Assembly: GCA_949289935.1 (NCBI GenBank)
Contig: CASEQD010000003.1
Coordinates: 8,816-72,815 of the forward strand
Source: an uncultured Pseudomonadota bacterium
GTDB lineage: Bacteria > Pseudomonadota > Alphaproteobacteria > RF32 > CAG-239
Reading direction: 5' to 3'
DNA length: 64,000 bases
The position numbers and the translations under genes are program-made. Below the pieces are notes generated by a model. It saw nothing but the letters and a program-made list of their open reading frames with translations, did no database searches and was not told where the DNA came from. Shown in pieces: positions 192 to 47,598 of this stretch; within the stretch, counting starts at the first letter, position 1; each line of letters starts with the position of its first letter.

Positions 192-267
<76 letters not shown>

Positions 268-4115: not shown

Positions 4116-4118
4116 AGG

Positions 4119-4739: not shown

Positions 4740-4760
4740 ATTTTAAGCCCTCTTCAGCTA

Positions 4761-5573: not shown

Positions 5574-5577
5574 AATT

Positions 5578-6249
5578 CTATCTCATTTTATTAAAATCAA
5601 GCGGATTTTTTTGTTTTTTAAATTTAAATAAAGAGGCCGGCAATTCCGCATCTTTTTCGGAATTATACAAAGACACGACAACTTCAATTCCCTGAGAATC
5701 GACTATTTTCCATTGTTTCAGCTCGAACGGCCGGTTGCCGAAAACCAGTGTTATCGGTCCGATATCCTGATTTTTTTGATACTCTATAACAGCTTCTGTC
5801 GTGCCGGCATCTTTATAAAAATCAACAATTTTGAAATTTTTGCCATCAATTTTTACATCGTTTGACAGAATGAGACTGGCAGGAATATCGTCATAATCAA
5901 AATGAGTTACCTGATCAAGATCTTTGTCATTATAAACAATATCCCTGCCATCGCCGACTATCAGCACGTTTACCGGCGAATCATATTCCATACGGATTTT
6001 GTTCGGCTTTTCTATATAGAGTTTTCCTTCGGCGGTATTTCCGTTGCCGGCTGTCTGGACAAACGATGCTTTCAGGGTTTTTATTCCGTTCAGATATGTT
6101 TCTATTTTCCGGCTGTCTTCGGTTGTTTGAGCCAAGGATGGAAAAGAAGCGCAAAAGCAGAATATCCCTAAAAAGAAAACGGTTATTTTTTTCATGACAA
6201 ATCCCTTATTTTGTTTGTTGTCCGATCTTAGTATAGATATTTTCTCCAC
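5578..6249 (-). CDS. lolA: Outer-membrane lipoprotein carrier protein LolA-like; probable start 6195 (MKKITVFF...)
   Basis: About 205 aa periplasmic protein with signal peptide FPSLAQT and LolA-family size and beta-rich composition. Confidence 0.6.
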   Translation of the reverse strand: MEKISILRSDNKQNKGFVMKKITVFFLGIFCFCASFPSLAQTTEDSRKIETYLNGIKTLKASFVQTAGNGNTAEGKLYIEKPNKIRMEYDSPVNVLIVGDGRDIVYNDKDLDQVTHFDYDDIPASLILSNDVKIDGKNFKIVDFYKDAGTTEAVIEYQKNQDIGPITLVFGNRPFELKQWKIVDSQGIEVVVSLYNSEKDAELPASLFKFKKQKNPLDFNKMR

Positions 6250-6274
6250 AAAAGCAAAATAAAAAACCGATGTT

Positions 6275-6289
6275 TTTAAATACAGTGTT
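6275..6289 (+). repeat. Motif copy TTTAAATACAGTGTT (1 nt after the methyltransferase stop, upstream of lolA)
   Basis: Exact 15-mer; a variant copy TTTAAATACACCGTT follows at 6309-6323. Confidence 0.9.
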
Positions 6290-6290
6290 T

Positions 6291-22837: not shown

Positions 22838-22932
22838 GATGGAGGGCAGTGGGTTAATTATTCGCCAATCCGGTCAGGTTCGGAAGAAAGCAGCCGTAAC
22901 GAACCAATTAAGGTCAGTGTCCCTCCGCCTTA
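22838..22932 (+). ncRNA. ffs: Signal recognition particle RNA (4.5S, ffs)
   Basis: Conserved domain IV sequence CCGGUCAGGUUCGGAAGAAAGCAGCC, closed by the GGAGGGCAGUG...CAGUGUCCCUCC helix. Sits in the classical position immediately upstream of dnaX. Confidence 0.75.
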
Positions 22933-33942: not shown

Positions 33943-34908
33943 TCAAAAATTTCCCCGCAGAATATTGCGGAATTTCTTTCTGTATGCCTTAACCGGCGTT
34001 ATCCGGCTAAGCAGGTACCATAACGGATTAAACAGGCTTAAAAAGATTTTTTTCTTTCTTGATTTTTGATATTCGAAAAAATAAGGCGACTGCCGGATAT
34101 AGTCGTAATAATCCGGAGCCGGCTTGATTTTTTTCCACATTTTTACAATAGCGCCGGCATAGTGGACGATTACCGGACTTTCTATGGCCGCATCAATTTC
34201 AGCATCAGAATAAACATTGCGCAAAAATTTGTATTCTGCCGTTGCCTGATATTTTCCATAATAAACATTTTCCAAAACACAATATTCAAATCCCAGCGGC
34301 TTAATTTTATCACAGGACAAATTCATAACTTCAAGATCAAACATTTTCAGGCGGTTTTTATGCTTATGCATATTGGCAAAAAATTTATTGACAATATTAT
34401 CTTCCCGACATTTTTTATTGTTAAAAACAATCAACCCCGAAAAGAAAATGAAATCGCCGGTATATTCTTCATAATGCTGGTGAATGCCGTTTAATTCGTC
34501 CGTTCGTTCCGCCGCAACGGCACCTATTTGATAATTGGAATAATCCTGATTGAATAAATGGCTTAAATCGCCTTTAAACATGACATCAACATCAGAATAA
34601 ACGACTTTGTCATATTGAGAAAGCACTTCCGGAATAATCAGCCGGTAATAAACCTCATACGGCCAAGCTGGAGATTTCGGCGCCTGATTAAACCTGTTGT
34701 TGTCGATTTTGATAAAAGTTATTTTTGCCCGGTCGGTTTGCAAATCTGCAAACAGTTTTTGATTTTCTTCACTCAGCCGTGAATATAAAATAAAGATATG
34801 ATAAAAAGTTACACGTTCCGCACAGGCTATCAACGACTTTACGGCAATCCACGCCGGAAGTCTGAAATTATCATCAAAGCAAAAAACAACGGGGATTTCG
34901 TTTTTCAT
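33943..34908 (-). CDS. Glycosyltransferase family 8 (LPS/LOS alpha-1,3-hexosyltransferase-like)
   Basis: IPVVFCFDDNF N-terminus and DxD VYSDVDVMF, as in RfaJ/Lgt-type GT8 enzymes. C-terminal basic tail ITPVKAYRKKFR. Confidence 0.8.
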   Translation of the reverse strand: MKNEIPVVFCFDDNFRLPAWIAVKSLIACAERVTFYHIFILYSRLSEENQKLFADLQTDRAKITFIKIDNNRFNQAPKSPAWPYEVYYRLIIPEVLSQYDKVVYSDVDVMFKGDLSHLFNQDYSNYQIGAVAAERTDELNGIHQHYEEYTGDFIFFSGLIVFNNKKCREDNIVNKFFANMHKHKNRLKMFDLEVMNLSCDKIKPLGFEYCVLENVYYGKYQATAEYKFLRNVYSDAEIDAAIESPVIVHYAGAIVKMWKKIKPAPDYYDYIRQSPYFFEYQKSRKKKIFLSLFNPLWYLLSRITPVKAYRKKFRNILRGNF

Positions 34909-36122
34909 TATTTTTTCCTTTGTATTGCATCAATGGTCTGCCGCAAATTTTTTTCGGATTTTGTTGCGACGGAAACAGCATGCCGCTCCAAAGCCCGGCA
35001 AACGGAAGCATATTCCTTTTCTTTCATATTAATGGCTTTTTTCATGGCTTCATATAATTCATCTCCTTGATAAAGAACAGCATCTTTTGCAGAAAACCCA
35101 TAAACATCGGCAAAAGTTTGTTCTATCAGCATTGGTTTGTTCAACCCCAAAGACAGCTGTTTTGAACCGGTGGTTGTGCCGTTTTTATAGCTTTTTTGCT
35201 GCGGACTGTCCGGATCAAGCAAGGCCAAAAGAAAATCGCTTTTCATGCAGTTATGGTACATATCGTTAAAATTCAGACGTCCCAGCTTTTTTATGTGCCT
35301 TTTTAAGGCTTCGGGGACAGCCATTCCACCGGAACCAATGACCAGAACTTTAAAGTTTTTGATATTTTCATTTATTAACTTTTCAACCGCCGCCAACAAT
35401 TGAGAACAATTTCTGGTGTTGGGGGACAAACGTCCGATCATAACAAAACAGGTTTTGGCATTTTTTTTATGCACCGGAATTTTTCCGAAATATATCGGAC
35501 AGAGAAGCTTTGCTTTGTCTTTTGCCAAAGGAAAATCATTCAGAACAAAAAGGCGTTTTCCCAAATATTTTTCGTTTTCATCATAAGGTTCGATATTTTG
35601 GCAATTGTGATAAACGCACAGAGCCCCAAAACGACTTTGAGGTTCGCTTCCCAAGTAGTCAAAATAACGCTCTTTGGTTTCCTGATAATCAAACGAAGAG
35701 ACAAAAACAAAGTCATAATTTTTGATGATTTTGTTTTTCAGAATTTGGGAAACCCTCCATTTTTGCAAGGGATAGACTGCCGGAAGTTCGTTTTTCTTAA
35801 ATAAAGCAAACGGATTTTCTTCATAATTGGAAATCCGCAGAACAACATCAACATTATATCCCAAATTCTGCCAGTATTTTACAAAACCGGGAACAATTTC
35901 TCCGTGATAATTATTTGGTTCAACGAGCAAAACTGTTTTTGGTTTAACGGCATGATTTAGAAAATCTGTATAAAAATGGTTATATTTTTGATAATTGCAC
36001 AGAATTTTTTCCGCATTAAATTCCTTAAGAGAAGCTATGGCTTTTTTTCTGTATTTTTTGACAGGAATCCAGCAGCAAAGCATTTGAGCCAGTTGTTTCT
36101 TCATGTGAAACCTCATTGTCAA
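34908..36122 (-). CDS. Putative GT-B-like glycosyl/phosphotransferase, uncharacterised family
   Basis: 404 aa with two Rossmann-like halves (…VLLVEP…, …FVMIGRL…VLVIGSGG…). N-terminal LCCWIPVKKYRKK motif. Stop/start overlap with the GT8 gene. Confidence 0.45.
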   Translation of the reverse strand: MTMRFHMKKQLAQMLCCWIPVKKYRKKAIASLKEFNAEKILCNYQKYNHFYTDFLNHAVKPKTVLLVEPNNYHGEIVPGFVKYWQNLGYNVDVVLRISNYEENPFALFKKNELPAVYPLQKWRVSQILKNKIIKNYDFVFVSSFDYQETKERYFDYLGSEPQSRFGALCVYHNCQNIEPYDENEKYLGKRLFVLNDFPLAKDKAKLLCPIYFGKIPVHKKNAKTCFVMIGRLSPNTRNCSQLLAAVEKLINENIKNFKVLVIGSGGMAVPEALKRHIKKLGRLNFNDMYHNCMKSDFLLALLDPDSPQQKSYKNGTTTGSKQLSLGLNKPMLIEQTFADVYGFSAKDAVLYQGDELYEAMKKAINMKEKEYASVCRALERHAVSVATKSEKNLRQTIDAIQRKK

Positions 36123-36226: not shown

Positions 36227-37216
36227 TCAGTCGACAATTTTCATGGTAAATTTTTCTTCCGGTTCCGGAACAGAATCAGAAACAGGTGAGGATGAAACCA
36301 TATTTCCGACATTTTTCCGATTTTGTTCCAACAAATCTATGATTTTATCCAGTTCGGCTATTGAAGAATATTCCAAAACAACTTTTCCATTTCCCTGTTT
36401 TCCCTGACTGATTTTTATTTTCAATCCCAGAGATTTGTTCAGAGATTTTTCGATATCCATCAAATCCTGATTAACTTCTTTTTTGTTTTTCTCCCGGGGA
36501 GCGGCGTTTTTGAGTTTGTTAACCAACTCTTCAACCTGACGGACGTTTAAGTCTTTTTTGATGATTAGTTGCGCCAGTTCTTCGGCATTTTCCAAACCGA
36601 CAAGGCTGCGGGCATGTCCGGCAGAAAGTTTTCCTTCCTTAATCAGGTTTTGTACACTTTCGGGCAAAGTTAAAAGACGCAGAGTATTGGCAATATGGCT
36701 GCGGGATTTTCCGACAATTTTGGACAAGGCTTCCTGAGTGTGGGAAAATTCATTTATCAGACGCTGCAGCCCTTCTGCTTCTTCTATGGCAGAAAGGTTT
36801 TCCCGCAACAGATTTTCGATTAAGGCAACTTCCAAAACTTCCTGATCGCTCATTTCTTTGATAATAACCGGAACTTCTTTCAGTCCTGCAATTTTTGACG
36901 CACGAAGACGCCTTTCTCCGGCAATCAGTTCATATCCGTTTTCACTGCGGCGGACAAGAAGCGGCTGTAAAACACCTTTTTCTTTTACAGAATCGGCAAG
37001 CGCCTGAAGAGCTTCTTCGTCAAACTCGGTTCTGGGCTGGAAAGGACTGGCTTTAATTGAAGAAATATCAACATAATTTGCCTTGTTGTCTGAAACTTTT
37101 TTTTCTTCTGCCGAAAATTCATCCAAATCAAAATCTATTTCATCATCTCCCAACAAAGCGCCCAAACCGCGCCCGAGGCTTTTTCTTTTTCCATGATTTT
37201 CATTTTCTGCCGACAT
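36227..37216 (-). CDS. parB: Chromosome partitioning protein ParB
   Basis: ParB box GERRLRA and the HTH region. Confidence 0.95.
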   Translation of the reverse strand: MSAENENHGKRKSLGRGLGALLGDDEIDFDLDEFSAEEKKVSDNKANYVDISSIKASPFQPRTEFDEEALQALADSVKEKGVLQPLLVRRSENGYELIAGERRLRASKIAGLKEVPVIIKEMSDQEVLEVALIENLLRENLSAIEEAEGLQRLINEFSHTQEALSKIVGKSRSHIANTLRLLTLPESVQNLIKEGKLSAGHARSLVGLENAEELAQLIIKKDLNVRQVEELVNKLKNAAPREKNKKEVNQDLMDIEKSLNKSLGLKIKISQGKQGNGKVVLEYSSIAELDKIIDLLEQNRKNVGNMVSSSPVSDSVPEPEEKFTMKIVD

Positions 37217-37234: not shown

Positions 37235-38014
37235 TTAGCAGGCGATTAATTCTTTTTCTCTTTTTAAGACTTCTCCCGTCAGACTGATGTAAGCCTGAGA
37301 ACCGGAACATTTGAAATCGTATAAAAGAACCGGTTTGCCATGCGACGGAGCTTCCGATATGCGTACGTTTCGGGGAATAACAGTCTGATAAACTTTTTTA
37401 CCGAAAAAACTTCTGACATCATCTTCAACCATTTGACTCAGGTTGTTGCGCTTGTCATACATGGTGAGCACAACTCCCTGAAGTTCCAGTCCCGGATTGA
37501 ACTTCTTTTTGATGATATTGATATTGCGAATCAGATCGGTAATTCCCTCCAAGGCCAAAAATTCACATTGCAGCGGAACAATAACGGCATTGGCGGCAAC
37601 CAAAGCATTAATTGTGACTAAACTCAGCGAGGGAGGACAATCAATTAAAATATAGTCATAATTTACAGCCCCCTTCTCTATTGCCTGTTTTAAGGCAAAC
37701 TCACGATGAGGCTGATCAACCAGCTCAACCTCGGCTCCTGCCAGATCTGCCGATGAAGGAACTATTGAGAAATTTGGAATTTCAGTCCAAACAATCGCTT
37801 CGGAAATATTTCTTTCTCCCAGCAAAACTTCATAAGATGAAGCCATCCGGCCTTTTTTATCTATTCCCATTGAAGTGGTGGCATTTCCCTGCGGGTCCAA
37901 ATCTATAACCAAAACTTTTTTACCGGCGGCGGCCATGGCTGTGGCAACATTCACCGTTGTGGTTGTTTTTCCGACCCCGCCTTTACGATTGGCTACGGCT
38001 ATAATTCTCGGCAT
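37235..38014 (-). CDS. parA: Chromosome partitioning ATPase ParA
   Basis: Deviant Walker A KGGVGKTTT. Confidence 0.95.
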   Translation of the reverse strand: MPRIIAVANRKGGVGKTTTTVNVATAMAAAGKKVLVIDLDPQGNATTSMGIDKKGRMASSYEVLLGERNISEAIVWTEIPNFSIVPSSADLAGAEVELVDQPHREFALKQAIEKGAVNYDYILIDCPPSLSLVTINALVAANAVIVPLQCEFLALEGITDLIRNINIIKKKFNPGLELQGVVLTMYDKRNNLSQMVEDDVRSFFGKKVYQTVIPRNVRISEAPSHGKPVLLYDFKCSGSQAYISLTGEVLKREKELIAC

Positions 38015-38016
38015 AA

Positions 38017-38667
38017 TTATCTCCTTTTTTCAGACAAGTTCGTTATAACAATTATCATTCCTTCATCGCTGGAAAGACTTCTAACCAGACGATAATCAAA
38101 ATTCCAGAATTTTTCTGCTTCGGAAATTTCTTCGGCATATTTTTTTCCTTTGGGAAAAATACATTTTGTTTCCGGCCGGCAAAAACGAAAAGAATATTTT
38201 AGCAGCTCATTTAACCGGCACAACGCCCGGGATGTTATGACGTCGGCTTTTTCGGTTTTGACGTTTTCAATTCGATCATTAATAATTTTAATATTATTTA
38301 GCCCGCATTTTTCAGAAACAAAGTTTAAATACAGCGTTTTCTTTTTTATGCTTTCTATCAGATTAATTTTTAAATACGGTGTTTTTTCTTGCAACACAAC
38401 AGCCAGAACCATCCCTGGAAAACCGGCTCCAGAACCAAAATCATACATAACTTTCGCATCTTTTGGAACAAGCGGTAGAAGCTGTAAAGAATCCAAAAAA
38501 TGACGATTCCATGCATCCGGCAAAGAAGCTTTACTAACTAAGTTAAATTTTTTCTGCCACTCATTTAAGCTTGCTTCATAAAGCTTCAGTTTAGAAAGTG
38601 TTTCACGTGAAACATTGTATTTTTCAATTAAATTTTCCATAAAAATATTTATATAAACTTTCAACAA
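38017..38667 (-). CDS. rsmG: 16S rRNA m7G527 methyltransferase RsmG (GidB); probable start 38637
   Basis: SAM motif DFGSGAGFPG. Confidence 0.92.
   Translation of the reverse strand: MLKVYINIFMENLIEKYNVSRETLSKLKLYEASLNEWQKKFNLVSKASLPDAWNRHFLDSLQLLPLVPKDAKVMYDFGSGAGFPGMVLAVVLQEKTPYLKINLIESIKKKTLYLNFVSEKCGLNNIKIINDRIENVKTEKADVITSRALCRLNELLKYSFRFCRPETKCIFPKGKKYAEEISEAEKFWNFDYRLVRSLSSDEGMIIVITNLSEKRR
38369..38383 (+). repeat. Motif copy variant TTTAAATACGGTGTT inside rsmG
   Basis: 14/15 match. Confidence 0.8.
38599..38614. promoter_or_regulatory. parS centromere site (perfect palindrome TGTTTCACGTGAAACA) inside rsmG
   Basis: Exact match to the universal ParB binding consensus. Confidence 0.85.
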
Positions 38668-38768
38668 AGTTTAAAACACATTTAATCAAGTTATAAACAC
38701 AAAAAGGAAAGCATATTTAAAATAATTTTAAATTCAACAACTTAAACGATGTTTACTTATTTATAACT

Positions 38769-39590
38769 TTAAAACTTTAGTCGATTTACATAGTTAATTT
38801 CTGAAAGAAAAACCTCGGCTTTATCAAAATTTTCTCCCAATTGAGCAACAGAATGCGCATCATCGCTGATAACGACAGGAACCTTGCGTTTGTTTAGCTC
38901 TTCAACAATCCAATTCTCTGGAAAAAAATGATTTGTTTTCCGAAGCCCTTTTGTGCTTAATTCGAATCCTGTGCGACTTTCGGCCAAAGCTTCTATTACA
39001 GACCATTTGGCAGCATCCCATTCTGATGTCTGGCAAAAACCTTTTGATGTTATCTGATCTATATGCGCCATAAAAGAAAACCATCCGTTCTTAATGGCGG
39101 CAACAAGATTTTTCCAATGATTTTCAAGGCCTTTTTTGATAATTTCATCATCTAACAAGTCCGGACGTCGTTTCAAATAGGAAATTTTTAATATCTTACT
39201 AAAATTATTATTGTAAATAAAGTGGCTGGCTCCGATATAATAATCAACATCCAAAGATTTTCGCATTCTATCAAAAAAATCCAGCCATTCTTTGTTATCA
39301 AAATAATCGACCTCGAATCCGACATAAACTTTTATTTTATGCCTTAGAGCCGTTTTGCGAATTTCATCAATGACTTGTTTATAAATTTGTTCGGCCTGAG
39401 CATAATTACGAAAATACATTGACTGCATTTTATCTATTTCGCAAATTCCCGGATTACAAATTAAATGATTGGAAATTCCGATTTCTTGAAAGCCCAGTTC
39501 TTCAGCACGGGAAATCATTTCATCGGCAGTATTTATTCCGTCAAAAATTCCCAAACTATTGGTATGCGTATGGTAAGAAAAAAGCTGCAT
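38769..39590 (-). CDS. PHP-family phosphoesterase (HisJ-type histidinol-phosphatase-like)
   Basis: N-terminal HTHT motif (SYHTHTN), further His/Asp metal ligands, 273 aa. Confidence 0.7.
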   Translation of the reverse strand: MQLFSYHTHTNSLGIFDGINTADEMISRAEELGFQEIGISNHLICNPGICEIDKMQSMYFRNYAQAEQIYKQVIDEIRKTALRHKIKVYVGFEVDYFDNKEWLDFFDRMRKSLDVDYYIGASHFIYNNNFSKILKISYLKRRPDLLDDEIIKKGLENHWKNLVAAIKNGWFSFMAHIDQITSKGFCQTSEWDAAKWSVIEALAESRTGFELSTKGLRKTNHFFPENWIVEELNKRKVPVVISDDAHSVAQLGENFDKAEVFLSEINYVNRLKF

Positions 39591-39614
39591 ATTTCCTCCT
39601 TGCGGAGAAAAATA

Positions 39615-40235
39615 TCATTTAATCGCTAAAAAATTATAAATATCATTTTGACATTTCTCATCAAAGAAAGATTTAATTTCGTATAAATCTTTCTTTATAT
39701 TATTTAACTGTTTCAAAGGGATTTGATACTCTGCAGAGACGGACTGAATCCGACTGTCAATTGAACAAATTTTTCCCGCGTTGTTCATCATATTGCACAA
39801 AGAGATGAGCTTGTCATAATCATCAAAAGAAAAATTTTCCATTATTTTACGGCATTCAGGAATGAAATCCTGCAAATGAGGATAATCTTCGTCACGGAAA
39901 TTTTCCGTATAAAAACTATGAGTCAGGCAAACTTTGGCAACCTCATCATATCCTAAAGACATCATATAATGATAGCCAACCACTCCGTGAAAAATATGTT
40001 CTTTCTTTTCATCAAGGATATATCCACAATCATGCAGCAGTCCCAAGACATAAGCTTTTTCATGATTTAAATATTTTGTTTTTTTAGCAAATATTTCGGC
40101 AACCATACCGACATCCCGGCTATGAGCCCGAAAAGCTATTTCAGCTTTTTCAGAAAAAGGATATTGTGTGGCATTTCTTACATCTATTATTTTATTCAAA
40201 ATGTTTTCGGCTTCTTTTTTGCTTGGACAGCTCAT
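39615..40235 (-). CDS. HD-domain phosphohydrolase (paralogue 1)
   Basis: H...HD (GLLHDCGY)...H..H...D signature; about 40% identical to the neighbouring paralogue. Confidence 0.7.
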   Translation of the reverse strand: MSCPSKKEAENILNKIIDVRNATQYPFSEKAEIAFRAHSRDVGMVAEIFAKKTKYLNHEKAYVLGLLHDCGYILDEKKEHIFHGVVGYHYMMSLGYDEVAKVCLTHSFYTENFRDEDYPHLQDFIPECRKIMENFSFDDYDKLISLCNMMNNAGKICSIDSRIQSVSAEYQIPLKQLNNIKKDLYEIKSFFDEKCQNDIYNFLAIK

Positions 40236-40244
40236 TTGTTTCCC

Positions 40245-40259
40245 TTTAAATACAGTGTT
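40245..40259 (+). repeat. Motif copy TTTAAATACAGTGTT at the HD2/HD1 junction (supplies the HD2 stop codon)
   Basis: Exact match. Confidence 0.9.
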
Positions 40260-40884
40260 AAAATTCGTCTTTTATCTCTAACAACTTGTAAATATCACAA
40301 CCGCATTTCTCATCAAAATATTTTTTGTTTTTTACAGCATTGTCATAAAAATTTTTTGTATCTGTTTCTTTTAAATTGTAGCGAAAGGAGATGCCTTTTA
40401 TTCGTTTTTTTATACAGACTTTTTCCAAACCTTCAAAAAACAAATCACATAATTGGACTAGACGGTCGTAATCGTTAAAGATTAAAGAACTCATTTTTTC
40501 TTTTGCCCAAAGAAGCCATTCTTTTTTATAAGACGGATAGTCATTATCTTTGAAATCCGGAGCATAAAAGCTATGAGTCAGGCAAACTCTGGCAACATCA
40601 TCATACCCCATAGCCATCATAATTTCATAACCTTCCCGCCCGTGAAAACGTCCCGTAATTTTTTCGGAAATTCGTTTTCCATAATCGTGAAGTAATCCGA
40701 GAGCATAAGCTTTTTCAACATTCAGCTCAGAGCAATTTTCGGCAATAATGCGACAGCAGCGCCCTACTCCCCGGGAATGAAAAATATATTCATCTTTCTC
40801 AGGAAAAGGATAATGTGTTTCTCTGTATAAAACACCTTCTTTCCATATTTTTTCAGCATTTCTGATACTCGGATATTTTTTCAT
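40258..40884 (-). CDS. HD-domain phosphohydrolase (paralogue 2)
   Basis: GLLHDYGK and the same layout as 39615-40235, including the shared CLTHSFY and FDEKC..DIY motifs. Confidence 0.7.
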   Translation of the reverse strand: MKKYPSIRNAEKIWKEGVLYRETHYPFPEKDEYIFHSRGVGRCCRIIAENCSELNVEKAYALGLLHDYGKRISEKITGRFHGREGYEIMMAMGYDDVARVCLTHSFYAPDFKDNDYPSYKKEWLLWAKEKMSSLIFNDYDRLVQLCDLFFEGLEKVCIKKRIKGISFRYNLKETDTKNFYDNAVKNKKYFDEKCGCDIYKLLEIKDEF

Positions 40885-40885
40885 G

Positions 40886-40900
40886 TTTAAATACAGTGTT
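40886..40900 (+). repeat. Motif copy TTTAAATACAGTGTT forming the whole mnmG/HD2 intergenic spacer
   Basis: Exact match; 1 nt from the HD2 start codon, and it overlaps the mnmG stop. Confidence 0.9.
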
Positions 40901-42753
40901 TATTTTTTTATATATCCCAGAATTGCCGTAACGGCGGCAGGGGTTACCCCCGGAATGCGGGAAGCTTCTCCAATGGTTGCCGGTTTGACTTTGGTTAACT
41001 TTTGTACCATTTCACGGGATAAACCTCCTATTTTTTTATAATCAATATCTTCTCTTATTTTTAAGTTTTCATCTTTTTTGAAAACTTCAATATCTGCTTT
41101 CTGGCGTTTAATATATCCGGCATAGCGGGCTTCTATTTCTATTTGTTCATAAATTTCATCTGGAACAGAAAATAAATCAGGCCAAAGATCATTGATTGTT
41201 TCACGTGAAACATTATCATAAGACATTATATTATATGCAGTCCGTTTGGTACCGTCCTGCTTGACTTTTATTCCTCTTTTTTCAAGTTCAGACGGTTTGG
41301 TTATCAGTTTTTCACAAAGAGTGCGACATTGGTTTAATTTTTCCTGTTTTGCTTTAAATACAGTGTATCGTTTTTCAGAAACACATCCTGTCTGCCAACC
41401 TTTTTCAGTCAGACGCAAATCAGCATTGTCAGCTCTGAGTAATAAACGATATTCAGAACGAGAAGTAAACATTCTGTATGGTTCATCAACGCCTTTGGTG
41501 ATAAGATCGTCAATCATAACACCTATATATCCTTCGCTACGGTCAACAGTAAATTCCCGCCCTTCTTTTCTTGCCATTAAAGCCGCATTAATTCCGGTAA
41601 CAATTCCCTGAGCGGCAGCTTCTTCATAGCCGGTTGTTCCGTTAATTTGTCCTGCTAAAAAAAGTCCCGGGACTTTTTTACATTCCAACCTGTGATTTAA
41701 TTCCTGCGGATCAACATAATCATATTCTATGGCATAGGCATAGCGCAGAATTTTGACATTTTTCAAACCATCCATGGTGTGAATAAAATCTTCCTGCACA
41801 TCAGCCGGAAGAGATGTTGATATTCCGTTTGGATAAACAACTTTGGAATTATAGCCTTCAGGTTCAAGAAAAATCTGATGACTGTTACGATCCGGAAATT
41901 TTACCAGTTTATCTTCAATACTTGGGCAATAACGCGGGCCAACCCCTTTTATCAATCCGGAAAACAACGCACATTTTTCAAAATTATCCCGAATAATCTG
42001 ATGTGTCTTTTCATTAGTATGAGTAATTGCGCATTGTATTTGTGGTTGAAGAATATCTTTTGTTAAAAAAGAAAAAGGAACAGGTTTTTCGTCTCCGTTT
42101 TGTTTGGGTAGTGATTCCCAATCTATGGAATCAAAATCCAACCGGGCAGGGGTTCCTGTTTTTAATCTTCCTGTTTTTAGTCCAAAAGCGTTTAAATACG
42201 GTGTTATTCCCATACAAGAAACATCATTTACCCGTCCTCCAACCGTTGTCTGATGACCGGTGAACATTATTCCGTTTAAAAAAGTTCCTGATGTGAGAAT
42301 GACCGTTTCTGATTTTATTTCGGTTCCGTCTGCCAGAATAACACCACATATTTTTTCTTTATCAGACAATAAACCTTCGACAGATGCTTCAATAAGTGTT
42401 AAATTTTTTTGTTTTTGCAAAGCTTCAAGCATATATTTTTTATACAAATCTCTGTCTGCCTGCGCACGCGGTCCACGAACCGCCGGCCCTTTTGATGCAT
42501 TCAGCATGCGAAACTGTATGCCTGCTTTATCAATAACCTGAGCCATTAATCCGTCAAGAGCATCTATTTCCCTGACAAGATGTCCTTTTCCCAAACCACC
42601 GACGGCCGGATTGCAGGACATTTCTCCTATTGAGGAAATTTTATGCGTAATCAAAGCCGTTTTTGCACCTATACGAGCTGACGCGGCACAAGCTTCACAT
42701 CCGGCATGTCCTCCGCCAACAACTATTACATCAAATTTCTGATTATTGTTCAT
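40900..42753 (-). CDS. mnmG: tRNA uridine 5-carboxymethylaminomethyl modification enzyme MnmG (GidA)
   Basis: FAD-binding [13 protein letters not shown]; 617 aa. Confidence 0.97.
41197..41212. promoter_or_regulatory. parS site (TGTTTCACGTGAAACA) inside mnmG
   Basis: Exact palindromic consensus. Confidence 0.85.
41353..41367 (+). repeat. Motif copy TTTAAATACAGTGTA inside mnmG
   Basis: 14/15 match. Confidence 0.8.
42191..42205 (+). repeat. Motif copy variant TTTAAATACGGTGTT inside mnmG
   Basis: 14/15 match. Confidence 0.8.
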
Positions 42754-42868
42754 TTATTCAAATGTCCAAAAATAAATATTGTTTTAAGGGTTTACAACAG
42801 GTTATATAATTTAGCAAGAGATTAATTTGTTAAAAAAAGCTTTTTTTAAACAAATTACGGACATAAAG

Positions 42869-42883
42869 TTTAAATACAGTGTT
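42869..42883 (+). repeat. Motif copy GTTTAAATACAGTGTTATTTT at the mnmE 3' end (supplies the mnmE stop codon)
   Basis: Exact match with extended flanks. Confidence 0.9.
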
Positions 42884-44225
42884 ATTTTCCAATACAAAAA
42901 CTACCGAATATCTTATCAAGAATTTCATCTATCTCTATTTGTCCGGTAATTTTTCCTATTTCCCGCGCAGCTAAACGAATATCTTCAGCCGACAACTCTA
43001 TTTCTTTATTCAGATTAAACAAACTAAGCGATTGTAAAGCTTCTCTTAAAGCTTCACGGTAGCGTGTGCGGGTTATGAGAAGACTTGAGTTTGAGGTAAA
43101 TTTATCATTGATAACCGAACTTATTTTATTAAGAATAATATCAATTCCTTTCTGTTGTTTAACAGAGATCAGAGGAATTCCCTGCTTTTGAATTTCGGAA
43201 CACTGTTCTTTTGTTAAAGCATCACATTTGTTGGCAAAAAAGAACATTTTGTTTTTAAATGATTTTTCAATATTTTCAAAGACCTGAACAGTGTCTTGAG
43301 ATGCATCAAACAAACAAAGAAGAAAATCAGCATCTTTTATTTTTTGATAAGCAATTTCAACGCCCTGGCGTTCAATAGCTTCTTCAGTTTCTCTGATGCC
43401 TGCCGTATCCGTGATAATTACGGGATAACCGTTTAAGTCTAAATGAATATCAACAGCATCGCGGGTTGTACCGGCAACATCGGAAACAATGACGACGTCT
43501 CTTTTAGCTATGGTATTCAGCAAACTCGATTTTCCAGCATTCGGACGTCCAACGATGACAACACGAAAACCTTCCCGCAAGCGTTCACCTATATTATCTT
43601 CTTCCAAATGCCCTTTTATTTCTTCCCGCAGTTTAAATACAGTGTTATTTATATTAGAAACAATATCTTCGGGAATTTCTTCATCGGGAAAATCAATATA
43701 GGCCTCAAGGTATGCCATAATATTAAGTAGCCGGGCTCGCCAGTCTTCATATAAATTTTTCAGGCTGCCTTCCATTTGCCGCAAAGCATATTGCTGCTGC
43801 GCTTTTGTTTCGGCATCTATTAAATCAGCGAGGCCTTCAGCCTCGGTTAAATCCATTTTTTGATTATAAAAAGCCCGTTTTGAATATTCACCGGGTTCAG
43901 CCAGACGAAATCCGGGGATGAGGCTGAGATTTTCAAGAACTGTTGCAATAACAGCCCGGGAACCGTGTGTCTGTAATTCAACAATATCTTCTCCGGTAAA
44001 AGAATTTGGCGCTCTAAAGTAAAGCAACAAACATTTATCAAGAGTTTGTCCGGTTTTTATATCTTTCAGATTAGTAAAATAGGCATAACGCGGTTTAATA
44101 TCAGCAAGGCTTATGTTTGTCATTAATCTGACTACCTGCAAAGCTTCGCTGCCTGAAATGCGAATAACGGCAACACCCGATTTTCCCAATACGGTAGATA
44201 AAGCATAAATTGTTTTATTGTCCAT
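42882..44225 (-). CDS. mnmE: tRNA modification GTPase MnmE (TrmE)
   Basis: G1 GRPNAGKSSL, G3 DTAG, C-terminal CIGK. Confidence 0.97.
   Translation of the reverse strand: MDNKTIYALSTVLGKSGVAVIRISGSEALQVVRLMTNISLADIKPRYAYFTNLKDIKTGQTLDKCLLLYFRAPNSFTGEDIVELQTHGSRAVIATVLENLSLIPGFRLAEPGEYSKRAFYNQKMDLTEAEGLADLIDAETKAQQQYALRQMEGSLKNLYEDWRARLLNIMAYLEAYIDFPDEEIPEDIVSNINNTVFKLREEIKGHLEEDNIGERLREGFRVVIVGRPNAGKSSLLNTIAKRDVVIVSDVAGTTRDAVDIHLDLNGYPVIITDTAGIRETEEAIERQGVEIAYQKIKDADFLLCLFDASQDTVQVFENIEKSFKNKMFFFANKCDALTKEQCSEIQKQGIPLISVKQQKGIDIILNKISSVINDKFTSNSSLLITRTRYREALREALQSLSLFNLNKEIELSAEDIRLAAREIGKITGQIEIDEILDKIFGSFCIGK
43631..43645 (+). repeat. Motif copy GTTTAAATACAGTGTTATTTA inside mnmE
   Basis: Exact match with extended flanks; encodes NNTVFKL. 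Confidence 0.9.
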
Positions 44226-44420: not shown

Positions 44421-45098
44421 ATGAAAAACAAACTACAATTAATTATTTGGGATTTTGACGGCGTTATTGCCGATTCCGAAAAAATATGGCTGGAAAACCG
44501 TAGAGTTTTTTTTAAAGAGCGTTTAGGCGTTGATTGGAATTTTGAAACAATCAACAAATATTTCGGCGGAACAAGCGATAAAACAAAAAAACAAATTTTA
44601 AGCCGTCTGGGATATGAAACCGATGAACAATTCTGGAAAGATGTTTTGGACAGAGATGTTGCTTTTATGAAAAAACACGGAATTGAAAAAATGCCCGGCG
44701 TTGAAAAGATATTGGTAGACAAAAGATTTAAGCATTGTGTGGCAACCGGTGGAACAAAAGCAAAAACAAAGTTGAAAACAGACATTATCGGTTTGGAAAA
44801 GTTCATTCCCGAACATCATGTTTTTACGGTCGACAATGTTGAAAAAGGAAAACCAGAGCCTGATTTGTTTTTATTTGCAGCGGAAAAAATGGGAGAAAAA
44901 CCGGAAAACTGTCTGGTTATCGAAGATTCAATAGCCGGAATGACCGCGGCGCAAAGGGCGGGAATGAAAGTTGTTGCCTTTTTGGGAAGCAGTATTTATC
45001 AAAATGAAGACTATTTACAAAAAGTCAAAAAATTAGGAATTAAAGATATCTTTTATAATATGAAAGATTTATATGAGTTTATAAAAATTAATGTTTGA
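44421..45098 (+). CDS. HAD-superfamily hydrolase (beta-phosphoglucomutase/phosphatase-like)
   Basis: Motif I DFDGVIADSE, with a later K and a DD-containing motif. Confidence 0.75.
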   Translation: MKNKLQLIIWDFDGVIADSEKIWLENRRVFFKERLGVDWNFETINKYFGGTSDKTKKQILSRLGYETDEQFWKDVLDRDVAFMKKHGIEKMPGVEKILVDKRFKHCVATGGTKAKTKLKTDIIGLEKFIPEHHVFTVDNVEKGKPEPDLFLFAAEKMGEKPENCLVIEDSIAGMTAAQRAGMKVVAFLGSSIYQNEDYLQKVKKLGIKDIFYNMKDLYEFIKINV

Positions 45099-45805
45099 CA
45101 AAAAATGTGCGAAAGATTAGATTGAGGGCGTTAAATTTATTACTAAATTTTATAATTATGGATAAAAAAGTTTTTGAATGGTACAGAAACGGCCTCAGCG
45201 CCCAAAAGAAAGCCGAAGAAGAACTTGAACTTCTGACTTCTGCTGAAAAAAATCTAAAAACAGAGAAAGAGATTATAGCCTCTTTTAAGGATTGCTATCT
45301 TAAGATAAAGGAATCCGGCAAACAAATGGCTGAAGCTGCTTTGCTATTGTTTCAACAATCTTTCCCCAAAAACGTCAAAGATTTTGAGGATGGCGGCATG
45401 CATCAATTTTTCAGCAATATCCGCATGCATCCTGAAATGTTGAAAGGATGTGAAAACAAACTTTTTCTTTTAATCAAAAAGGCAGCCGAACCAGGTAATG
45501 CAAATTCCTTTTCTTGGTGTTGGAGTCCGGTTTATGCCGTTTTAACCGAAAAAGAGATTAAGGATTTTGTTTTGAACAATTATTCAGAAGATTTTGCTGC
45601 TATGGTTTCTTCTTTATCTTTACACTTGGATCCGATTGGCGGTGATGATGAGGAGAGGGCGGTTGCTTTCTTTACATCATTAGGACAGTTTGAAGAAAAG
45701 AATCCGGGAATTGTGCAAAAAAGTCTGGATAATCTTCTTAAAGATGTAAATTTTTACAGAAGCAGCTGGGTAGCAAAGGTGGTTGATTTTTATCATCAAA
45801 ATTAA
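45095..45805 (+). CDS. Hypothetical protein (probable start 45158, MDKKVF)
   Basis: Helical, no recognisable motif; coupled to the upstream HAD gene by a 4-nt overlap. Confidence 0.4.
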   Translation: MTKNVRKIRLRALNLLLNFIIMDKKVFEWYRNGLSAQKKAEEELELLTSAEKNLKTEKEIIASFKDCYLKIKESGKQMAEAALLLFQQSFPKNVKDFEDGGMHQFFSNIRMHPEMLKGCENKLFLLIKKAAEPGNANSFSWCWSPVYAVLTEKEIKDFVLNNYSEDFAAMVSSLSLHLDPIGGDDEERAVAFFTSLGQFEEKNPGIVQKSLDNLLKDVNFYRSSWVAKVVDFYHQN

Positions 45806-45810
45806 TAAAA

Positions 45811-45849
45811 AAAGAGAGGTGTTTTAGCAAACATCCTCTCTTTTTTTTA
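45811..45849. terminator. Bidirectional rho-independent terminator between the hypothetical gene and rho
   Basis: AAAGAGAGG-loop-CCTCTCTTT followed by T8. Confidence 0.65.
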
Positions 45850-47100
45850 ACTATTCATATTATTGAAAAAATCCTGGTTGTTTTTGGATATTTTTAATTT
45901 ATCCAGCAAAAATTCCATTCCGTCCGTCATTCCCATCTGCATCAAAACGCGACGGAGAACCCACATTTTAGCCAAGGTCTGACGATCAACCAAAAGTTCT
46001 TCTTTGCGTGTTCCCGAACGAGTAATATCAATGGTCGGAAACAAACGTTTGTCAACAAGTTTCCGGTCAAGAATAATTTCGGAATTGCCCGTTCCCTTGA
46101 ATTCTTCAAATATAACCTCATCCATACGCGAACCTGTATCAATCAAAGCCGTAGCAATAATAGTCAGAGATCCGCCTTCTTCAACATTTCTCGCAGCTCC
46201 CAGTAGGCGTTTCGGACGTTGCAGGGCATTGGCATCCACACCGCCGGTCAGCACTTTTCCGGAAGAAGGGATAACCGCGTTATAGGCTCGTCCCAAACGG
46301 GTTATAGAATCCAAAAGAATGACAACATCTTTTTTGGTTTCAACCAATCTTTTGGCTTTTTCAACCACCATTTCGGCAACCTGAACGTGACGTGTTGCCG
46401 GTTCGTCAAAAGTTGAAGATATAACTTCACCTTTGACGGAGCGCGTCATATCCGTTACCTCTTCCGGGCGCTCATCTATAAGTAAGACCATCAGATAGAC
46501 TTCAGGGTGGTTTTCGGCAATGGCATGGGCTATATTTTGCAGCATAACCGTTTTACCTGTCCGGGGCGGGGCGACAATCAATCCGCGTTGTCCTTTTCCC
46601 TGAGGGGCAACCAAATCAATAACCCGGGTGGTATAATCTTTTTCACCGCAGATAATATCAAAATTCAGTTTTTCCGTAGGATAAAGCGGTGTCAGATTGT
46701 CAAAATTAACACGAAGTTTTGATTTTTCCGGATCTTCAAAATTTATTTTATTAATTTTTGTCAGAGCAAAATAACGTTCATTTTCTTTCGGAGCTCTGAT
46801 TTCACAATCGACCGTATCACCTGTTCTTAATCCGAACTTTTTTACCTGAGCCGGTGAAACATAAATATCATCAGGACTGGCCAGATAATTGGATTCAACC
46901 GAACGCAAAAATCCAAAGCCATCGGGTAAAACTTCAATTGTACCGTTTCCGTATATAATTTCATCATCGGAAGCTACTTTTTTCAGAATTGCAAAGATAA
47001 GATCCTGAACACGCATTGAAGATGCATCTTCAATGCCCAGCTCTTCAGCCTGGGTTAAAAGCTCTTTCGGAGACTTTTGTTTTAATTCTTGTAAGTGCAT
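45847..47100 (-). CDS. rho: Transcription termination factor Rho (the ORF track extends to 47187; start MHLQELK)
   Basis: N-terminal [15 protein letters not shown], the RNA-binding OB domain, Walker A PPRTGKT, 418 aa. Confidence 0.97.
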
Positions 47101-47598
47101 TATAAACCTTAAATGTCTGAGTGGAAATTTAAGCAGGAAATTGCTTAAGATTGATTTGTTTATATGATTTAAATGTTCAAGAGTCAAATGTTTGTTTTGA
47201 AAAAAGGTTATGCACAGTCTGCCTGCCCAAACATATTTATTTAAATTTATGTGGTTATTTGTATATACCTGTGAGTTGTGTGGATAAGTTTTTCAGAGGA
47301 TTTTTTATAAGTTTGTTAATAATGTGTTAACGAATCTGACATGACGAAAAAACTAAAAGTTAATAGAATCTTAATATTTTTACCGAGTCAGTTTTTGTAA
47401 AGCAATTTTATGTTGCAACAGGTAAAATTTTTATTTCAGGAGCAAAACGAATCCAGACGGGCGCTGTGGGTAAATATGTAGAATAAATTTTACATTATGA
47501 GGATTAATTTGTATAAATAAGAAAAAGAGCTGAGTTATGCACAGACAAGTTCAAAATTGTGTATAACAAAACAACATATTGTTTTTTTAGGACTTTTT

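What the first reader, a model, noticed from the sequence alone, without database searches (positions are those of the whole stretch)
38769..40900. HD-HD-PHP insertion inside the otherwise invariant mnmG-rsmG junction: two paralogous HD phosphohydrolases plus a PHP phosphoesterase, bounded by the repeat motif
In alphaproteobacteria rho-mnmE-mnmG-rsmG-parA-parB is normally contiguous. Here three phosphoesterase genes sit between mnmG and rsmG. They are two about-207 aa HD-domain paralogues (about 40% identity; shared CLTHSFY and FDEKC..DIY motifs) and a PHP/HisJ-like enzyme. Every junction of the insert carries the TTTAAATACAGTGTT motif. A second insertion (HAD hydrolase plus a hypothetical protein, 44421-45805) sits between mnmE and rho.

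Three linked metal-dependent phosphohydrolases with no kinase, cyclase or transporter partner look like a nucleotide or second-messenger degrading module, or a small-molecule processing pathway. The paralogue pair suggests hetero-oligomerisation or sub-functionalisation.
Basis: partly seen in the sequence, partly recalled or inferred. Interest (0 to 1): 0.7.

Follow-up and report, generated by a model that had tools for sequence, protein, structure and literature searches.

The report
Conserved HD/PHP phosphoesterase array between parS sites
Three intact metal-dependent phosphoesterase genes sit between mnmG and rsmG near the replication origin, but they are the local version of an old, copy-number-variable gene array shared by a clade of uncultured gut Alphaproteobacteria, not a private insertion bounded by repeats, and their substrate is still unknown.

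Summary
Two HD genes (208 and 206 aa, 43% identical) and one PHP gene (273 aa) lie tightly packed between mnmG and rsmG.

The framing needs correction.
- In every one of about 38 related gut/rumen alphaproteobacterial genomes recovered through their HD genes, the same junction holds 1-3 HD domains and 0-4 PHP genes. The order is shuffled, and there are pseudogenes and two HD-HD fusions.
- The block is therefore ancestral to the clade and dynamic.
- The 15-mer is not a boundary of the insert. It lies at two of the four junctions, and also at fixed positions inside mnmE, mnmG, rsmG and parB across the clade, always in one orientation.
- Two perfect parS sites bracket the array, and a likely oriC lies about 7 kb away.

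The HD proteins form an uncharacterised family with a dinuclear-type H..HD..H..H..D ligand set. The PHP proteins resemble HisJ/HisK but score below the family cut-offs. Every copy keeps its metal ligands.

Fusion partners of the wider HD family (NUDIX, MazG, NT5C, DHH-DHHA2) point to nucleotide phosphoester hydrolysis. No substrate is established, and no phage, defence or mobile-element signal was found.

The parts
40258..40884 (-). HD1: 208-aa HD-domain hydrolase of sub-clade A, the type found in 40 of 41 arrays. Proposed metal ligands are H36, H66, D67, H81, H104 and D140, plus invariant R161.
   Evidence: ORF; Pfam HD; invariant columns; AF2 model with pLDDT 96.7; sub-clade assignment.
39615..40235 (-). 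HD2: 206-aa HD-domain hydrolase of sub-clade B, 43% identical to HD1. It carries an Arg two residues before the first His (FRAH).
38769..39590 (-). PHP phosphoesterase of 273 aa, HisJ/HisK-like, with a full set of candidate trinuclear metal ligands (H7, H9, D17, H42, E93, H123, H176, D244, H246).
   Evidence: Pfam PHP; NCBIfam HisJ models all below cut-off; alignment; profile match to 2yxo at E=3.4e-17; Foldseek TM 0.77 to 2yxo; ligands invariant in 40 copies.
40886..40900 (-). 15-mer AACACTGTATTTAAA that fills the whole mnmG-HD1 spacer and overlaps the mnmG stop codon.
40245..40259 (-). 15-mer AACACTGTATTTAAA in the HD1-HD2 spacer, overlapping the HD1 stop codon.
42869..42883 (-). The same 15-mer at the mnmE stop codon, in the mnmE-mnmG spacer and outside the insert.
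38324..38383 (-). Two copies of the 15-mer inside the rsmG coding sequence (38324-38338 and 38369-38383). These positions are orthologous across the clade.
38599..38614 (.). Perfect canonical parS (TGTTTCACGTGAAACA) in the 5' end of rsmG, coding NVSRET. It forms the downstream bracket of the array.
41197..41212 (.). Perfect canonical parS in the 3' part of mnmG, also coding NVSRET. It forms the upstream bracket of the array.
40900..42753 (-). mnmG (gidA), the upstream neighbour. It carries motif copies at 41353-41367 and 42191-42205.
38017..38667 (-). rsmG (gidB), the downstream neighbour. The likely ATG start is at 38640.
44421..45098 (+). HAD-IA hydrolase (beta-phosphoglucomutase/sugar-phosphatase-like) between rho and mnmE on the opposite strand. 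Present in most of the related loci.
45095..45805 (+). 236-aa ORF with no family match. It is found only in the nearest relatives, at 28-38% identity.

Best explanation
The block is this genome's version of an old array of soluble metal-dependent phosphoesterase genes. The array is specific to a clade of uncultured gut/rumen Alphaproteobacteria and varies in copy number. It lies inside the origin-proximal mnmE-mnmG-[array]-rsmG-parA-parB gene string, between two canonical parS sites.

Shown:
- The array always contains at least one member of an uncharacterised ~205-aa HD family with a dinuclear-type ligand set.
- It usually also contains one or more HisJ/HisK-like PHP enzymes.
- Copies have been duplicated, lost, shuffled, pseudogenised and occasionally fused, and the intact copies keep their metal ligands.

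Inferred mechanism:
- The HD proteins work as dimers. In genomes with several types these may be heterodimers.
- They cleave a phosphoanhydride or phosphodiester bond in nucleotide-derived small molecules, as house-cleaning or salvage enzymes rather than in signalling.
- The PHP enzyme, and perhaps the nearby HAD enzyme, removes the remaining phosphomonoester.
- The different paralogues cover different substrates.
- The tight spacing, with start/stop overlap on mnmG in several relatives, suggests co-expression with the constitutive operon close to oriC.

The position probably reflects a junction that tolerates insertions, not a functional tie to tRNA or rRNA modification. The lineage's divergent MurA, a Nudix gene and an azoreductase-like gene have also landed there in some species.

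Clade-wide synteny with variable content:
- Independent assemblies show mnmG-HD-HD-PHP-rsmG, or the same without PHP.
- 35 species-representative genomes and further metagenome contigs show 1-3 HD domains and 0-4 PHP genes in varying order.
- At least three old HD sub-clades and two PHP clades exist, with type A present in 40 of 41 arrays.

Catalytic competence:
- In the HD copies, H36, H66, D67, H81, H104, D140 and R161 are each kept in at least 77 of 79 sequences.
- The candidate PHP ligands are kept in 40 of 40 copies.
- The six-residue H..HD..H..H..D pattern is diagnostic of a dinuclear site (PMC8177086).

Dimer idea:
- HD-HD fusion ORFs occur in L028 (441 aa) and L041 (411 aa), and two more were found in the 1.84-billion-protein library.
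- Small HD phosphatases are generally dimers (PMC8177086).

Nucleotide theme:
- Fusion partners in the wider HD family are NUDIX (three cases), MazG, NT5C, DHH-DHHA2 and AAA_33.
- A Nudix gene sits inside the array in L028 and L041.

Insertion-tolerant junction:
- A MurA-like gene, Nudix and an azoreductase-like gene occur in the array in some species.
- The MurA-like gene sits beside obg, and in one of the two loci also beside Mur-ligase genes, in more distant relatives.

Not mobile or phage-derived:
- No PADLOC or PHROG match was found beyond weak domain-level hits, and no viral relatives.

Co-expression:
- There is a 4-nt mnmG/HD overlap in L004.
- No terminator-like site lies in the junctions.
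Against: - No substrate evidence exists. The nucleotide inference rests on fusion partners of distant family members, which also include GNAT (five cases), SUKH, a peptidase, a lipase and a tyrosine-phosphatase-like domain.
- Homologues in Firmicutes have no conserved neighbourhood. One is translationally coupled to an ABC importer, which hints at an imported organophosphate instead.
- The best matches of the PHP protein are histidinol-phosphate phosphatases.
- Type-A HD proteins mostly lack the Arg before the first His that characterised HD phosphatases keep.
- Co-transcription is inferred from spacing only.
- The HD-HD fusions join two type-A copies, not types A and B.
Confidence: 0.5

Rival explanations
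1. Turnover of signalling nucleotides. The dinuclear HD pair degrades an alarmone or second messenger such as Ap4A, c-di-AMP, c-di-GMP, cGAMP or (p)ppGpp/(p)ppApp, and the PHP enzyme finishes the linear product.
For: - The nearest solved folds include YqeK-type proteins (2o08, 8wmy), HD-GYP (4mcw, 9rc0), PgpH (4s1b) and small alarmone hydrolases (7qoe, 7smg).
- There is a weak sequence match to YqeK 8jja.
- The ligand set is of the dinuclear type shared with YqeK, PgpH and HD-GYP.
Against: - No NCBIfam YqeK model is met and there is no GYP motif (sequence).
- No cyclase, synthetase or sensor gene lies nearby.
- Copy number of 1-3 HD domains and 0-4 PHP genes, with pseudogenes, is unusual for a dedicated signalling hydrolase.
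Confidence: 0.2
2. The PHP gene is simply the clade's histidinol-phosphate phosphatase (HisJ/HisK type), a housekeeping biosynthetic enzyme. The HD genes are unrelated general nucleotidases that happen to be adjacent.
For: - The best sequence and structure matches are HolPases: 2yxo at E=3.4e-17 over the full length with TM 0.77, plus 3dcp and 4gyf.
- The top NCBIfam hits are histidinol-phosphatase models.
- One metagenome source names a homologue 'hisJ family'.
Against: - All HisJ models score below their cut-offs: TIGR01856 77.1 against 90.2, PRK07328 97 against 202, PRK08123 62 against 133.
- Identity to solved HolPases is only 16-20%.
- Eight of 38 arrays have no PHP gene, one has four, four have two, and one carries a pseudogene.
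- No his genes are adjacent.
Confidence: 0.15
3. RNA-end chemistry tied to the neighbouring genes. The HD and PHP enzymes process tRNA or rRNA ends (2',3'-cyclic phosphate, 3'-phosphate or 5' trimming) together with MnmE/MnmG and RsmG.
For: - HD type A always follows mnmG directly, with start/stop overlap in several species.
- The operon is otherwise devoted to RNA modification.
- Both the HD and PHP superfamilies include RNA-end enzymes. The PHP-fold RNase P component 6k0a/6k0b is a weak hit.
Against: - Relatives in Firmicutes show no mnmG, rsmG or RNA-gene context.
- No RNA-binding domain is present.
- The PHP protein falls in the HisJ/HisK branch.
- Unrelated genes (MurA-like, Nudix, azoreductase-like) also sit at this junction.
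Confidence: 0.08
4. A mobile gene cassette delimited by the repeated 15-mer (integron-like or transposon-like), as the first reader's 'bounded by the repeat motif' implies.
For: - The motif lies at two junctions of the insert and overlaps the upstream stop codons.
- Array content varies between species.
- GC content of the insert (33-35%) is slightly below that of its neighbours.
Against: - The motif is absent from the HD2|PHP junction. It sits at fixed orthologous positions inside mnmE, mnmG, rsmG and parB in 25-38 of 39 loci.
- No integrase or transposase is present.
- There are no viral relatives and no meaningful PHROG or PADLOC hits.
- The paralogue trees show old sub-clades, not recent transfer.
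Confidence: 0.03

Closest known systems
YqeK (COG1713) symmetrical Ap4A hydrolase, a dinuclear HD phosphatase (PDB 2O08, 8JJA, 8WMY)
   Same: - Similar size, about 190-215 aa.
- All-helical HD fold.
- Six-ligand H..HD..H..H..D set with similar spacing: H21/H50/D51/H83/H109/D127 in YqeK against H36/H66/D67/H81/H104/D140 here.
- Dimeric enzyme.
   Different: - No NCBIfam YqeK-family hit; only sub-threshold partial hits to NadD-HD fusion models.
- No nadD neighbour.
- A family-specific C-terminal part (YDDYD...R161...FDEKCGxDIY) lies outside the aligned core.
HisJ/HisK PHP-type histidinol-phosphate phosphatases (T. thermophilus 2YXO, Listeria 3DCP/6NLR, L. lactis 4GYF)
   Same: - Same length and the same distorted-barrel PHP fold (TM 0.64-0.77).
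- All candidate trinuclear metal ligands are present.
- Alignable from end to end.
   Different: - 16-20% identity.
- Below every curated HisJ/HolPase cut-off.
- Occurs as 0-4 diverged tandem paralogues next to HD genes, not in a his context.
HD-GYP and PgpH cyclic-dinucleotide phosphodiesterases
   Same: Multinuclear HD core, and among the top structural neighbours (4mcw, 9rc0, 4s1b).
   Different: - No GYP motif.
- No receiver, 7TM or sensor domain.
- The PDE-type 'HH' is replaced by H104-S.
Small HD nucleotidases and pyrophosphohydrolases (YfbR, YpgQ, OxsA)
   Same: - Stand-alone ~200-aa dimeric HD enzymes that act on nucleotides.
- The Nudix, MazG and NT5C fusion partners of the wider family match this theme.
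   Different: - YfbR and YpgQ are mononuclear (H..HD..D), and HD phosphatases in general keep an Arg before the first His (PMC8177086).
- Here the site is six-ligand, and type A usually has Ile or Val at that position.

Membership tests
HD-domain superfamily (PF01966) | Pfam HD model above the gathering score, and an H..HD..D metal motif | tested here: met
   HD1 scores 32.9 bits and HD2 31.5 bits against a cut-off of 22. The motif residues are invariant.
Dinuclear HD enzymes | Extended six-residue H..HD..H..H..D ligand set (PMC8177086) | tested here: met
   H36, H66, D67, H81, H104 and D140 are each kept in 77-79 of 79 array copies and in both window paralogues. Metal content itself was not measured.
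YqeK / COG1713 Ap4A hydrolase | Match to a curated YqeK family model at or above its cut-off; nadD-yqeK neighbourhood | tested here: not met
   No YqeK model was reported. There are only partial hits to NadD-HD fusion models at 19-28 bits against cut-offs of 315. No nadD gene is adjacent.
HD-GYP phosphodiesterases | GYP motif after the HD core, usually with a receiver or sensor domain | tested here: not met
   There is no GYP in the alignment and the proteins have a single domain. Structural similarity is generic.
HDOD (PF08668) | Full-length HDOD domain of about 196 positions | tested here: inconclusive
   [not shown]
Characterised HD phosphatases (mono-, di- and triphosphatases) | Strictly conserved Arg shortly before the first metal-binding His (PMC8177086) | tested here: inconclusive
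   HD2 and type B carry Arg or Lys two residues before the His in 15 of 16 copies. HD1 has Ile there, and type A has Arg in only 12 of 47 copies.
PHP superfamily (PF02811) | Pfam PHP model above the gathering score; HxH, Glu, His and DxH metal ligands | tested here: met
   59.3 bits against a cut-off of 26.4. H7, H9, D17, H42, E93, H123, H176, D244 and H246 are invariant in 40 of 40 copies.
HisJ/HisK histidinol-phosphate phosphatase | Curated family model at or above its cut-off | tested here: not met
   TIGR01856 scores 77.1 against 90.2, PRK07328 97.2 against 202, and PRK08123 62 against 133.
HisJ/HisK histidinol-phosphate phosphatase | Substrate-binding residues for histidinol phosphate, and need for the enzyme in a his pathway | not testable with these tools
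   The published residue fingerprint for PHP-type HolPases was not found in the held papers. Whole genomes of the clade could not be surveyed for his genes.
Mobile cassette / integron-like array | Recombination sites at every cassette boundary, an integrase, and occurrence at other loci or on mobile elements | tested here: not met
   The motif is missing at HD2|PHP and is present inside core coding sequences. No integrase is present. There are no viral relatives.
Known anti-phage defence systems (PADLOC) | Match to a defence-system protein model | tested here: not met
   There is only a 14.9-bit Cas3 HD-core hit for HD2 and nothing for HD1 or PHP.

The most novel reading that the evidence does not exclude
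The origin-proximal block is more than a convenient landing site, in two respects.

First, the one-orientation 15-mer (consensus AAC-NNN-GTATTTAAA) is held at fixed sites inside mnmE, mnmG, rsmG, parB and the HD genes, against synonymous drift. It could be an undescribed cis-acting element of the centromere/ori-proximal operon, for example a polar recognition site for a DNA- or RNA-binding factor.

Second, the parS-bracketed HD/PHP paralogue array could be a diversifying battery of hydrolases, either against toxic or signalling nucleotides or coupled to the nucleotide economy of the partition complex.
Probability: 0.12. Interest if true: 0.8.

Novelty: new variant of a known kind. Interest (0 to 1): 0.5.

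Why it matters
If the reading is right, a whole clade of uncultured gut and rumen Alphaproteobacteria carries an expandable set of two uncharacterised phosphoesterase families in one of the most conserved gene strings of bacterial chromosomes, between the two parS sites next to oriC.

- **Two enzyme families to assay.** There are many natural paralogues and natural HD-HD fusions to compare. Both window proteins have high-confidence predicted models.
- **A conserved operon that accepts genes.** The array shows that a strongly conserved operon can take in and diversify inserted genes without losing its order.
- **A testable cis-element.** The conserved one-orientation 15-mer inside coding sequences is a concrete target for work on centromere or operon control in a lineage with no cultured model.

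It does not open a long-standing question, and the enzymes may turn out to be ordinary nucleotidases.

Tried and rejected
- **Mobile cassette bounded by repeats: rejected.** The motif lies inside core genes at orthologous positions and is missing at one junction.
- **The motif as parS: rejected.** Canonical parS sites are present separately.
- **The motif as a genome-wide uptake-signal-like sequence: unlikely.** There is no exact copy in about 110 kb of non-operon loci from the same clade. None lies in 55 kb of the window outside two clusters. None lies around the CcrM-like gene in relatives.
- **Phage or defence origin: no support**.
- **Conserved neighbourhood for the Firmicutes HD homologues: none found**.
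- **A pathway linking the MurA-like gene in some arrays to HD and PHP: rejected.** In more distant relatives the same divergent MurA sits next to obg, and in one of the two loci also next to Mur-ligase genes, so it looks like the lineage's housekeeping MurA.
- **A published residue fingerprint for PHP-type HolPases: not found.** The paper retrieved deals with HAD-type enzymes.
- **Known RNA families: none in the region**.
- **Promoter and terminator scan: uninformative.** Counts were at or below shuffle expectation.
Full report
**1. What is in the sequence**

On the minus strand the window encodes, in transcription order:
- rho (45847-47187)
- mnmE (42882-44225)
- mnmG (40900-42753)
- a 208-aa ORF, HD1 (40258-40884)
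- a 206-aa ORF, HD2 (39615-40235)
- a 273-aa ORF, PHP (38769-39590)
- rsmG (38017-38640/38667)
- parA (37235-38014)
- parB (36227-37216)

A HAD hydrolase (44421-45098) and a 236-aa ORF (45095-45805) lie on the plus strand between rho and mnmE.

Pfam confirms GIDA, GidB, HD (both small ORFs), PHP and HAD_2. HD1 and HD2 are 43% identical. Spacers inside the block are 15, 22 and 24 nt, and about 100 nt lie before rsmG. No terminator-like site falls in these junctions. GC content of the block is 33-35%, against 37-43% in its neighbours.

**2. The block is not private to this genome**

The HD1 protein has only 78 relatives in the word-indexed search of 5.8 billion proteins. Look-ups of four of them gave these results:
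- The same mnmG-HD-HD-PHP-rsmG order appears in independent assemblies at 63% and 52% identity.
- An HD-HD version without PHP appears at 47% identity.

A scan of one genome per GTDB species returned 35 alphaproteobacterial species representatives. All are uncultured gut or rumen MAGs. The closest is 'uncultured Azospirillum sp. UMGS63'. In all of them HD genes lie between mnmG and rsmG.

Content varies between genomes, for example:
- HD-PHP
- HD-HD
- HD-HD-PHP
- HD-HD-HD-PHP
- HD-PHP-PHP
- PHP-HD-HD-HD
- HD-MurA-like-PHP-PHP-PHP-PHP

Over 38 non-redundant arrays I count 1, 2 or 3 HD domains in 12, 18 and 8 arrays. I count 0, 1, 2 or 4 PHP genes in 8, 25, 4 and 1 arrays. L036 carries a fragmented PHP gene and L043 a split HD gene. 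The HAD gene between rho and mnmE is also present in most of these loci.

Neighbour-joining trees show at least three old HD sub-clades:
- Type A includes HD1 and is present in 40 of 41 arrays.
- Type B includes HD2.
- Type C is absent from the window.

The trees also show two old PHP clades, and the order within the array is not fixed. The junction was therefore occupied in the common ancestor of these genomes and has been remodelled since.

**3. The repeat motif**

The 15-mer is real: 12 matches with up to 2 mismatches, against 0.21 expected, all on the plus strand. It was also recovered independently as repeat families. It does not delimit the insert.
- It fills the mnmG|HD1 spacer and lies in the HD1|HD2 spacer.
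- It is absent from HD2|PHP.
- It also sits at the mnmE stop codon and inside rsmG (two copies), mnmG (two copies) and mnmE.

In 39 non-redundant related loci (532 kb) there are 239 matches on the operon sense strand and 2 on the other strand. They fall at orthologous positions:
- mnmG codon ~180 in 38 loci
- mnmE codon ~195 in 37 loci
- rsmG codons ~96 and ~111 in about 30 loci each
- mnmG codon ~462 in 27 loci
- the parB C-terminus
- HD codon ~50
- several junctions

Two reading frames are used. Within the motif, third-codon positions are 90-100% conserved, while flanking codons are 40-60% conserved. The consensus is AAC-R-N-Y-GTATTTAAA.

It is not parS (see section 4). It is not genome-wide either:
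- There is no exact copy in about 110 kb of other loci from the same clade.
- Nothing lies in 55 kb of the window outside two clusters.
- The second window cluster (3293-6992: porin, lolA|methylase spacer, CcrM-like gene) is not conserved around the CcrM-like gene in relatives.

Its function is unexplained. It is a sequence element under selection at the nucleotide level, local to this operon.

**4. Setting: centromere and origin**

Two perfect canonical parS sites (TGTTTCACGTGAAACA) lie at 41197-41212, in the 3' part of mnmG, and at 38599-38614, in the 5' end of rsmG. Both code NVSRET. Both are conserved in nearly all related loci. The HD/PHP array therefore sits exactly between the two parS sites.

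Five DnaA-box-like sites, one of them perfect, cluster at 47208-47566 between rho and the next gene. The cumulative GC skew reaches its minimum at about 44-47 kb. A likely oriC is therefore about 7 kb from the array.

**5. What the proteins are**

*HD family.* H36, H66, D67, H81, H104, D140 and R161 are invariant. They are kept in at least 77 of 79 array copies. This is the extended H..HD..H..H..D pattern that diagnoses a dinuclear site (PMC8177086).

- an unannotated HD hydrolase (2pq7)
- an HDOD protein (3hc1)
- HD-GYP domains
- the YqeK-type 2o08
- PgpH

PDB sequence search gives only marginal hits. NCBIfam gives only sub-threshold partial hits.

A profile search of 1.84 billion representatives finds 244 clusters at E<=1e-30 and 2625 at E<=1e-3. 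Most are ~200-aa stand-alone proteins. The next-closest members, at 33-40% identity, are single genes in Lachnospiraceae, Ruminococcus and other Clostridia. They have no conserved neighbourhood. One is translationally coupled to an ABC importer.

Longer members of the family carry these fused domains:
- NUDIX (three cases), MazG, NT5C, DHH-DHHA2 and AAA_33
- GNAT (five cases), Y_phosphatase3, SUKH, Peptidase_S51, GDSL and DUF429

Two relatives encode HD-HD fusion proteins. Their halves are 51-52% identical, both of type A, and the fusions arose independently. Type B copies carry Arg or Lys two residues before the first His, as characterised HD phosphatases do. Type A copies mostly carry Ile or Val there.

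*PHP family.* All candidate trinuclear ligands are invariant. The family profile matches T. thermophilus histidinol phosphatase 2yxo over its full length (E=3.4e-17). The AF2 model (pLDDT 94.6) superposes best on HolPases: 2yxo at TM 0.77, then 3dcp and 4gyf, at 16-20% identity. Every curated HisJ/HolPase model scores below its cut-off. The three family members whose contexts were looked up lie in this same array.

There are no defence-system, phage-family or viral-contig relatives beyond weak domain-level hits. There are no Rfam hits in the region.

**6. Interpretation**

Shown:
- The block consists of three intact genes whose products keep complete metal-ligand sets, so they are probably active metallo-phosphoesterases.
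- The array is ancestral to the clade, remodelled repeatedly, and bracketed by parS next to oriC.

Inferred:
- The HD proteins act as dimers, based on the fusions and on the general behaviour of small HD phosphatases.
- They act on nucleotide-derived substrates, based on the Nudix, MazG, NT5C and DHH-DHHA2 partners and on the Nudix gene inside some arrays.
- PHP removes a phosphomonoester.
- The genes ride on the operon's expression.

The junction seems to tolerate insertions. Some species also carry there a divergent MurA, scoring 253 bits against the murA cut-off of 392.7. Elsewhere in the lineage this MurA sits next to obg, and in one of the two loci examined also next to Mur-ligase genes, so it looks like the lineage's housekeeping MurA. 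A Nudix gene and an azoreductase-like gene are also found at the junction in some species.

I put about 0.5 on the nucleotide house-cleaning or salvage reading. The rivals are:
- signalling-nucleotide turnover, 0.2
- PHP as the true HolPase, 0.15
- RNA-end processing linked to MnmEG and RsmG, 0.08
- a repeat-bounded mobile cassette, 0.03

**7. Comparison and novelty**

The closest known enzymes are YqeK-type dinuclear HD hydrolases and HisJ/HisK HolPases. Neither membership test is met at the family level, although superfamily membership is clear. I found no description of this array or of the 15-mer, but no search of the held literature was aimed at either.

I rate it a new variant of a known kind: two uncharacterised sub-families of well-known phosphoesterase superfamilies, in an unusual, conserved yet plastic arrangement.

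Interest is moderate (0.5). The enzymes may prove ordinary. The array's position between the parS sites, its paralogue dynamics, and above all the one-orientation 15-mer maintained inside coding sequences are unexpected and directly testable.

Noticed in passing
window 38324-43646 (eight copies) and the related loci L002-L047, L091, L093: A 15-mer (AAC-R-N-Y-GTATTTAAA) occurs in a single orientation at orthologous positions inside mnmE, mnmG, rsmG, parB and the HD genes, and at several junctions, across about 39 species. Third-codon positions inside it are 90-100% conserved against 40-60% in the flanks. Counts are 239 sense against 2 antisense hits. It is not parS, and its function is unknown.
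   Followed up: yes
window 38599-38614 and 41197-41212: Two perfect canonical parS sites, each coding NVSRET, lie in the 5' end of rsmG and the 3' part of mnmG. They are conserved in nearly all related loci and bracket the HD/PHP array.
   Followed up: yes
window 47188-47566: Five DnaA-box-like sites (one perfect, at 47279-47287) cluster in and just past the rho-coaE-like spacer. The cumulative GC-skew minimum lies at about 44-47 kb. This is a likely oriC.
   Followed up: partly
window 3293-6992: A second cluster of four copies of the same 15-mer in the same orientation lies in a porin gene (antisense to it), in the lolA|methylase spacer and twice in a CcrM-like methylase gene. It is not present around the CcrM-like gene in 64-75% identical relatives (L099-L111).
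   Followed up: partly
L028 6305-7630; L041 6374-7609: These are single ORFs of 441 and 411 aa, each made of two complete HD domains of this family that are 51-52% identical. The fusions arose independently in the two genomes. Two further two-domain proteins (P0243, P0244) are in the representative library.
   Followed up: yes
L014 7682-9106; L028 4841-6292; L041 3513-4940; L091 2893-4320: A divergent 474-483-aa MurA-like enolpyruvyl transferase, below the murA model cut-off, sits inside the mnmG-rsmG array in some species. In more distant relatives (L097, L098) it lies next to obg, and in L098 also next to Mur-ligase genes, so it is probably the lineage's housekeeping MurA.
   Followed up: partly
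L028 4229-4798 and 8113-8691; L041 2819-3385 and 8501-9079: A 188-189-aa protein with a Nudix-box-like motif (read by eye; weak PHROG MutT/NUDIX hit) and, on the opposite strand, a 192-aa azoreductase-like protein also lie inside the array in two species.
   Followed up: partly
L036 7700-8527; L043 7621-8234: A PHP gene is broken into three ORF fragments in L036, and an HD gene is split in two in L043. These are decaying copies within the array.
   Followed up: partly
L010 2172-6597: In a Lachnospira MAG the single HD homologue (35% identical) overlaps the stop codon of a fused 558-aa ABC permease. It lies in an ATPase - binding protein - permease operon, which hints at an imported organophosphate substrate.
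   Followed up: partly
L012 4514-4915; L016 4042-4413; L034 3321-3740; L020 4442-5026; L034 1262-1888: The mnmE-mnmG spacer, and in L034 the HAD-mnmE spacer, also hold variable small genes in relatives. These are 123-139-aa ORFs with no recognised family (only the L012 ORF was scanned) and a 194-208-aa class-I methyltransferase on the opposite strand. The window has only a 128-nt mnmE-mnmG spacer.
   Followed up: no
L041 (JAISVX010000001.1): The record is titled 'Lactobacillaceae bacterium', but the locus carries the alphaproteobacterial mnmG-array-rsmG-parAB string with mnmG 73% identical to the window's. The bin is probably mislabelled or contaminated.
   Followed up: no
window 192-264, 2766-2839, 22838-22932: Two tRNA genes and the small SRP RNA were detected by Rfam at gathering thresholds.
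   Followed up: no
window 33943-36122: A 404-aa protein with no family match and a Glyco_transf_8 gene directly follow parB. The same pair follows parB in the nearest relatives (L001, L002, L007).
   Followed up: no
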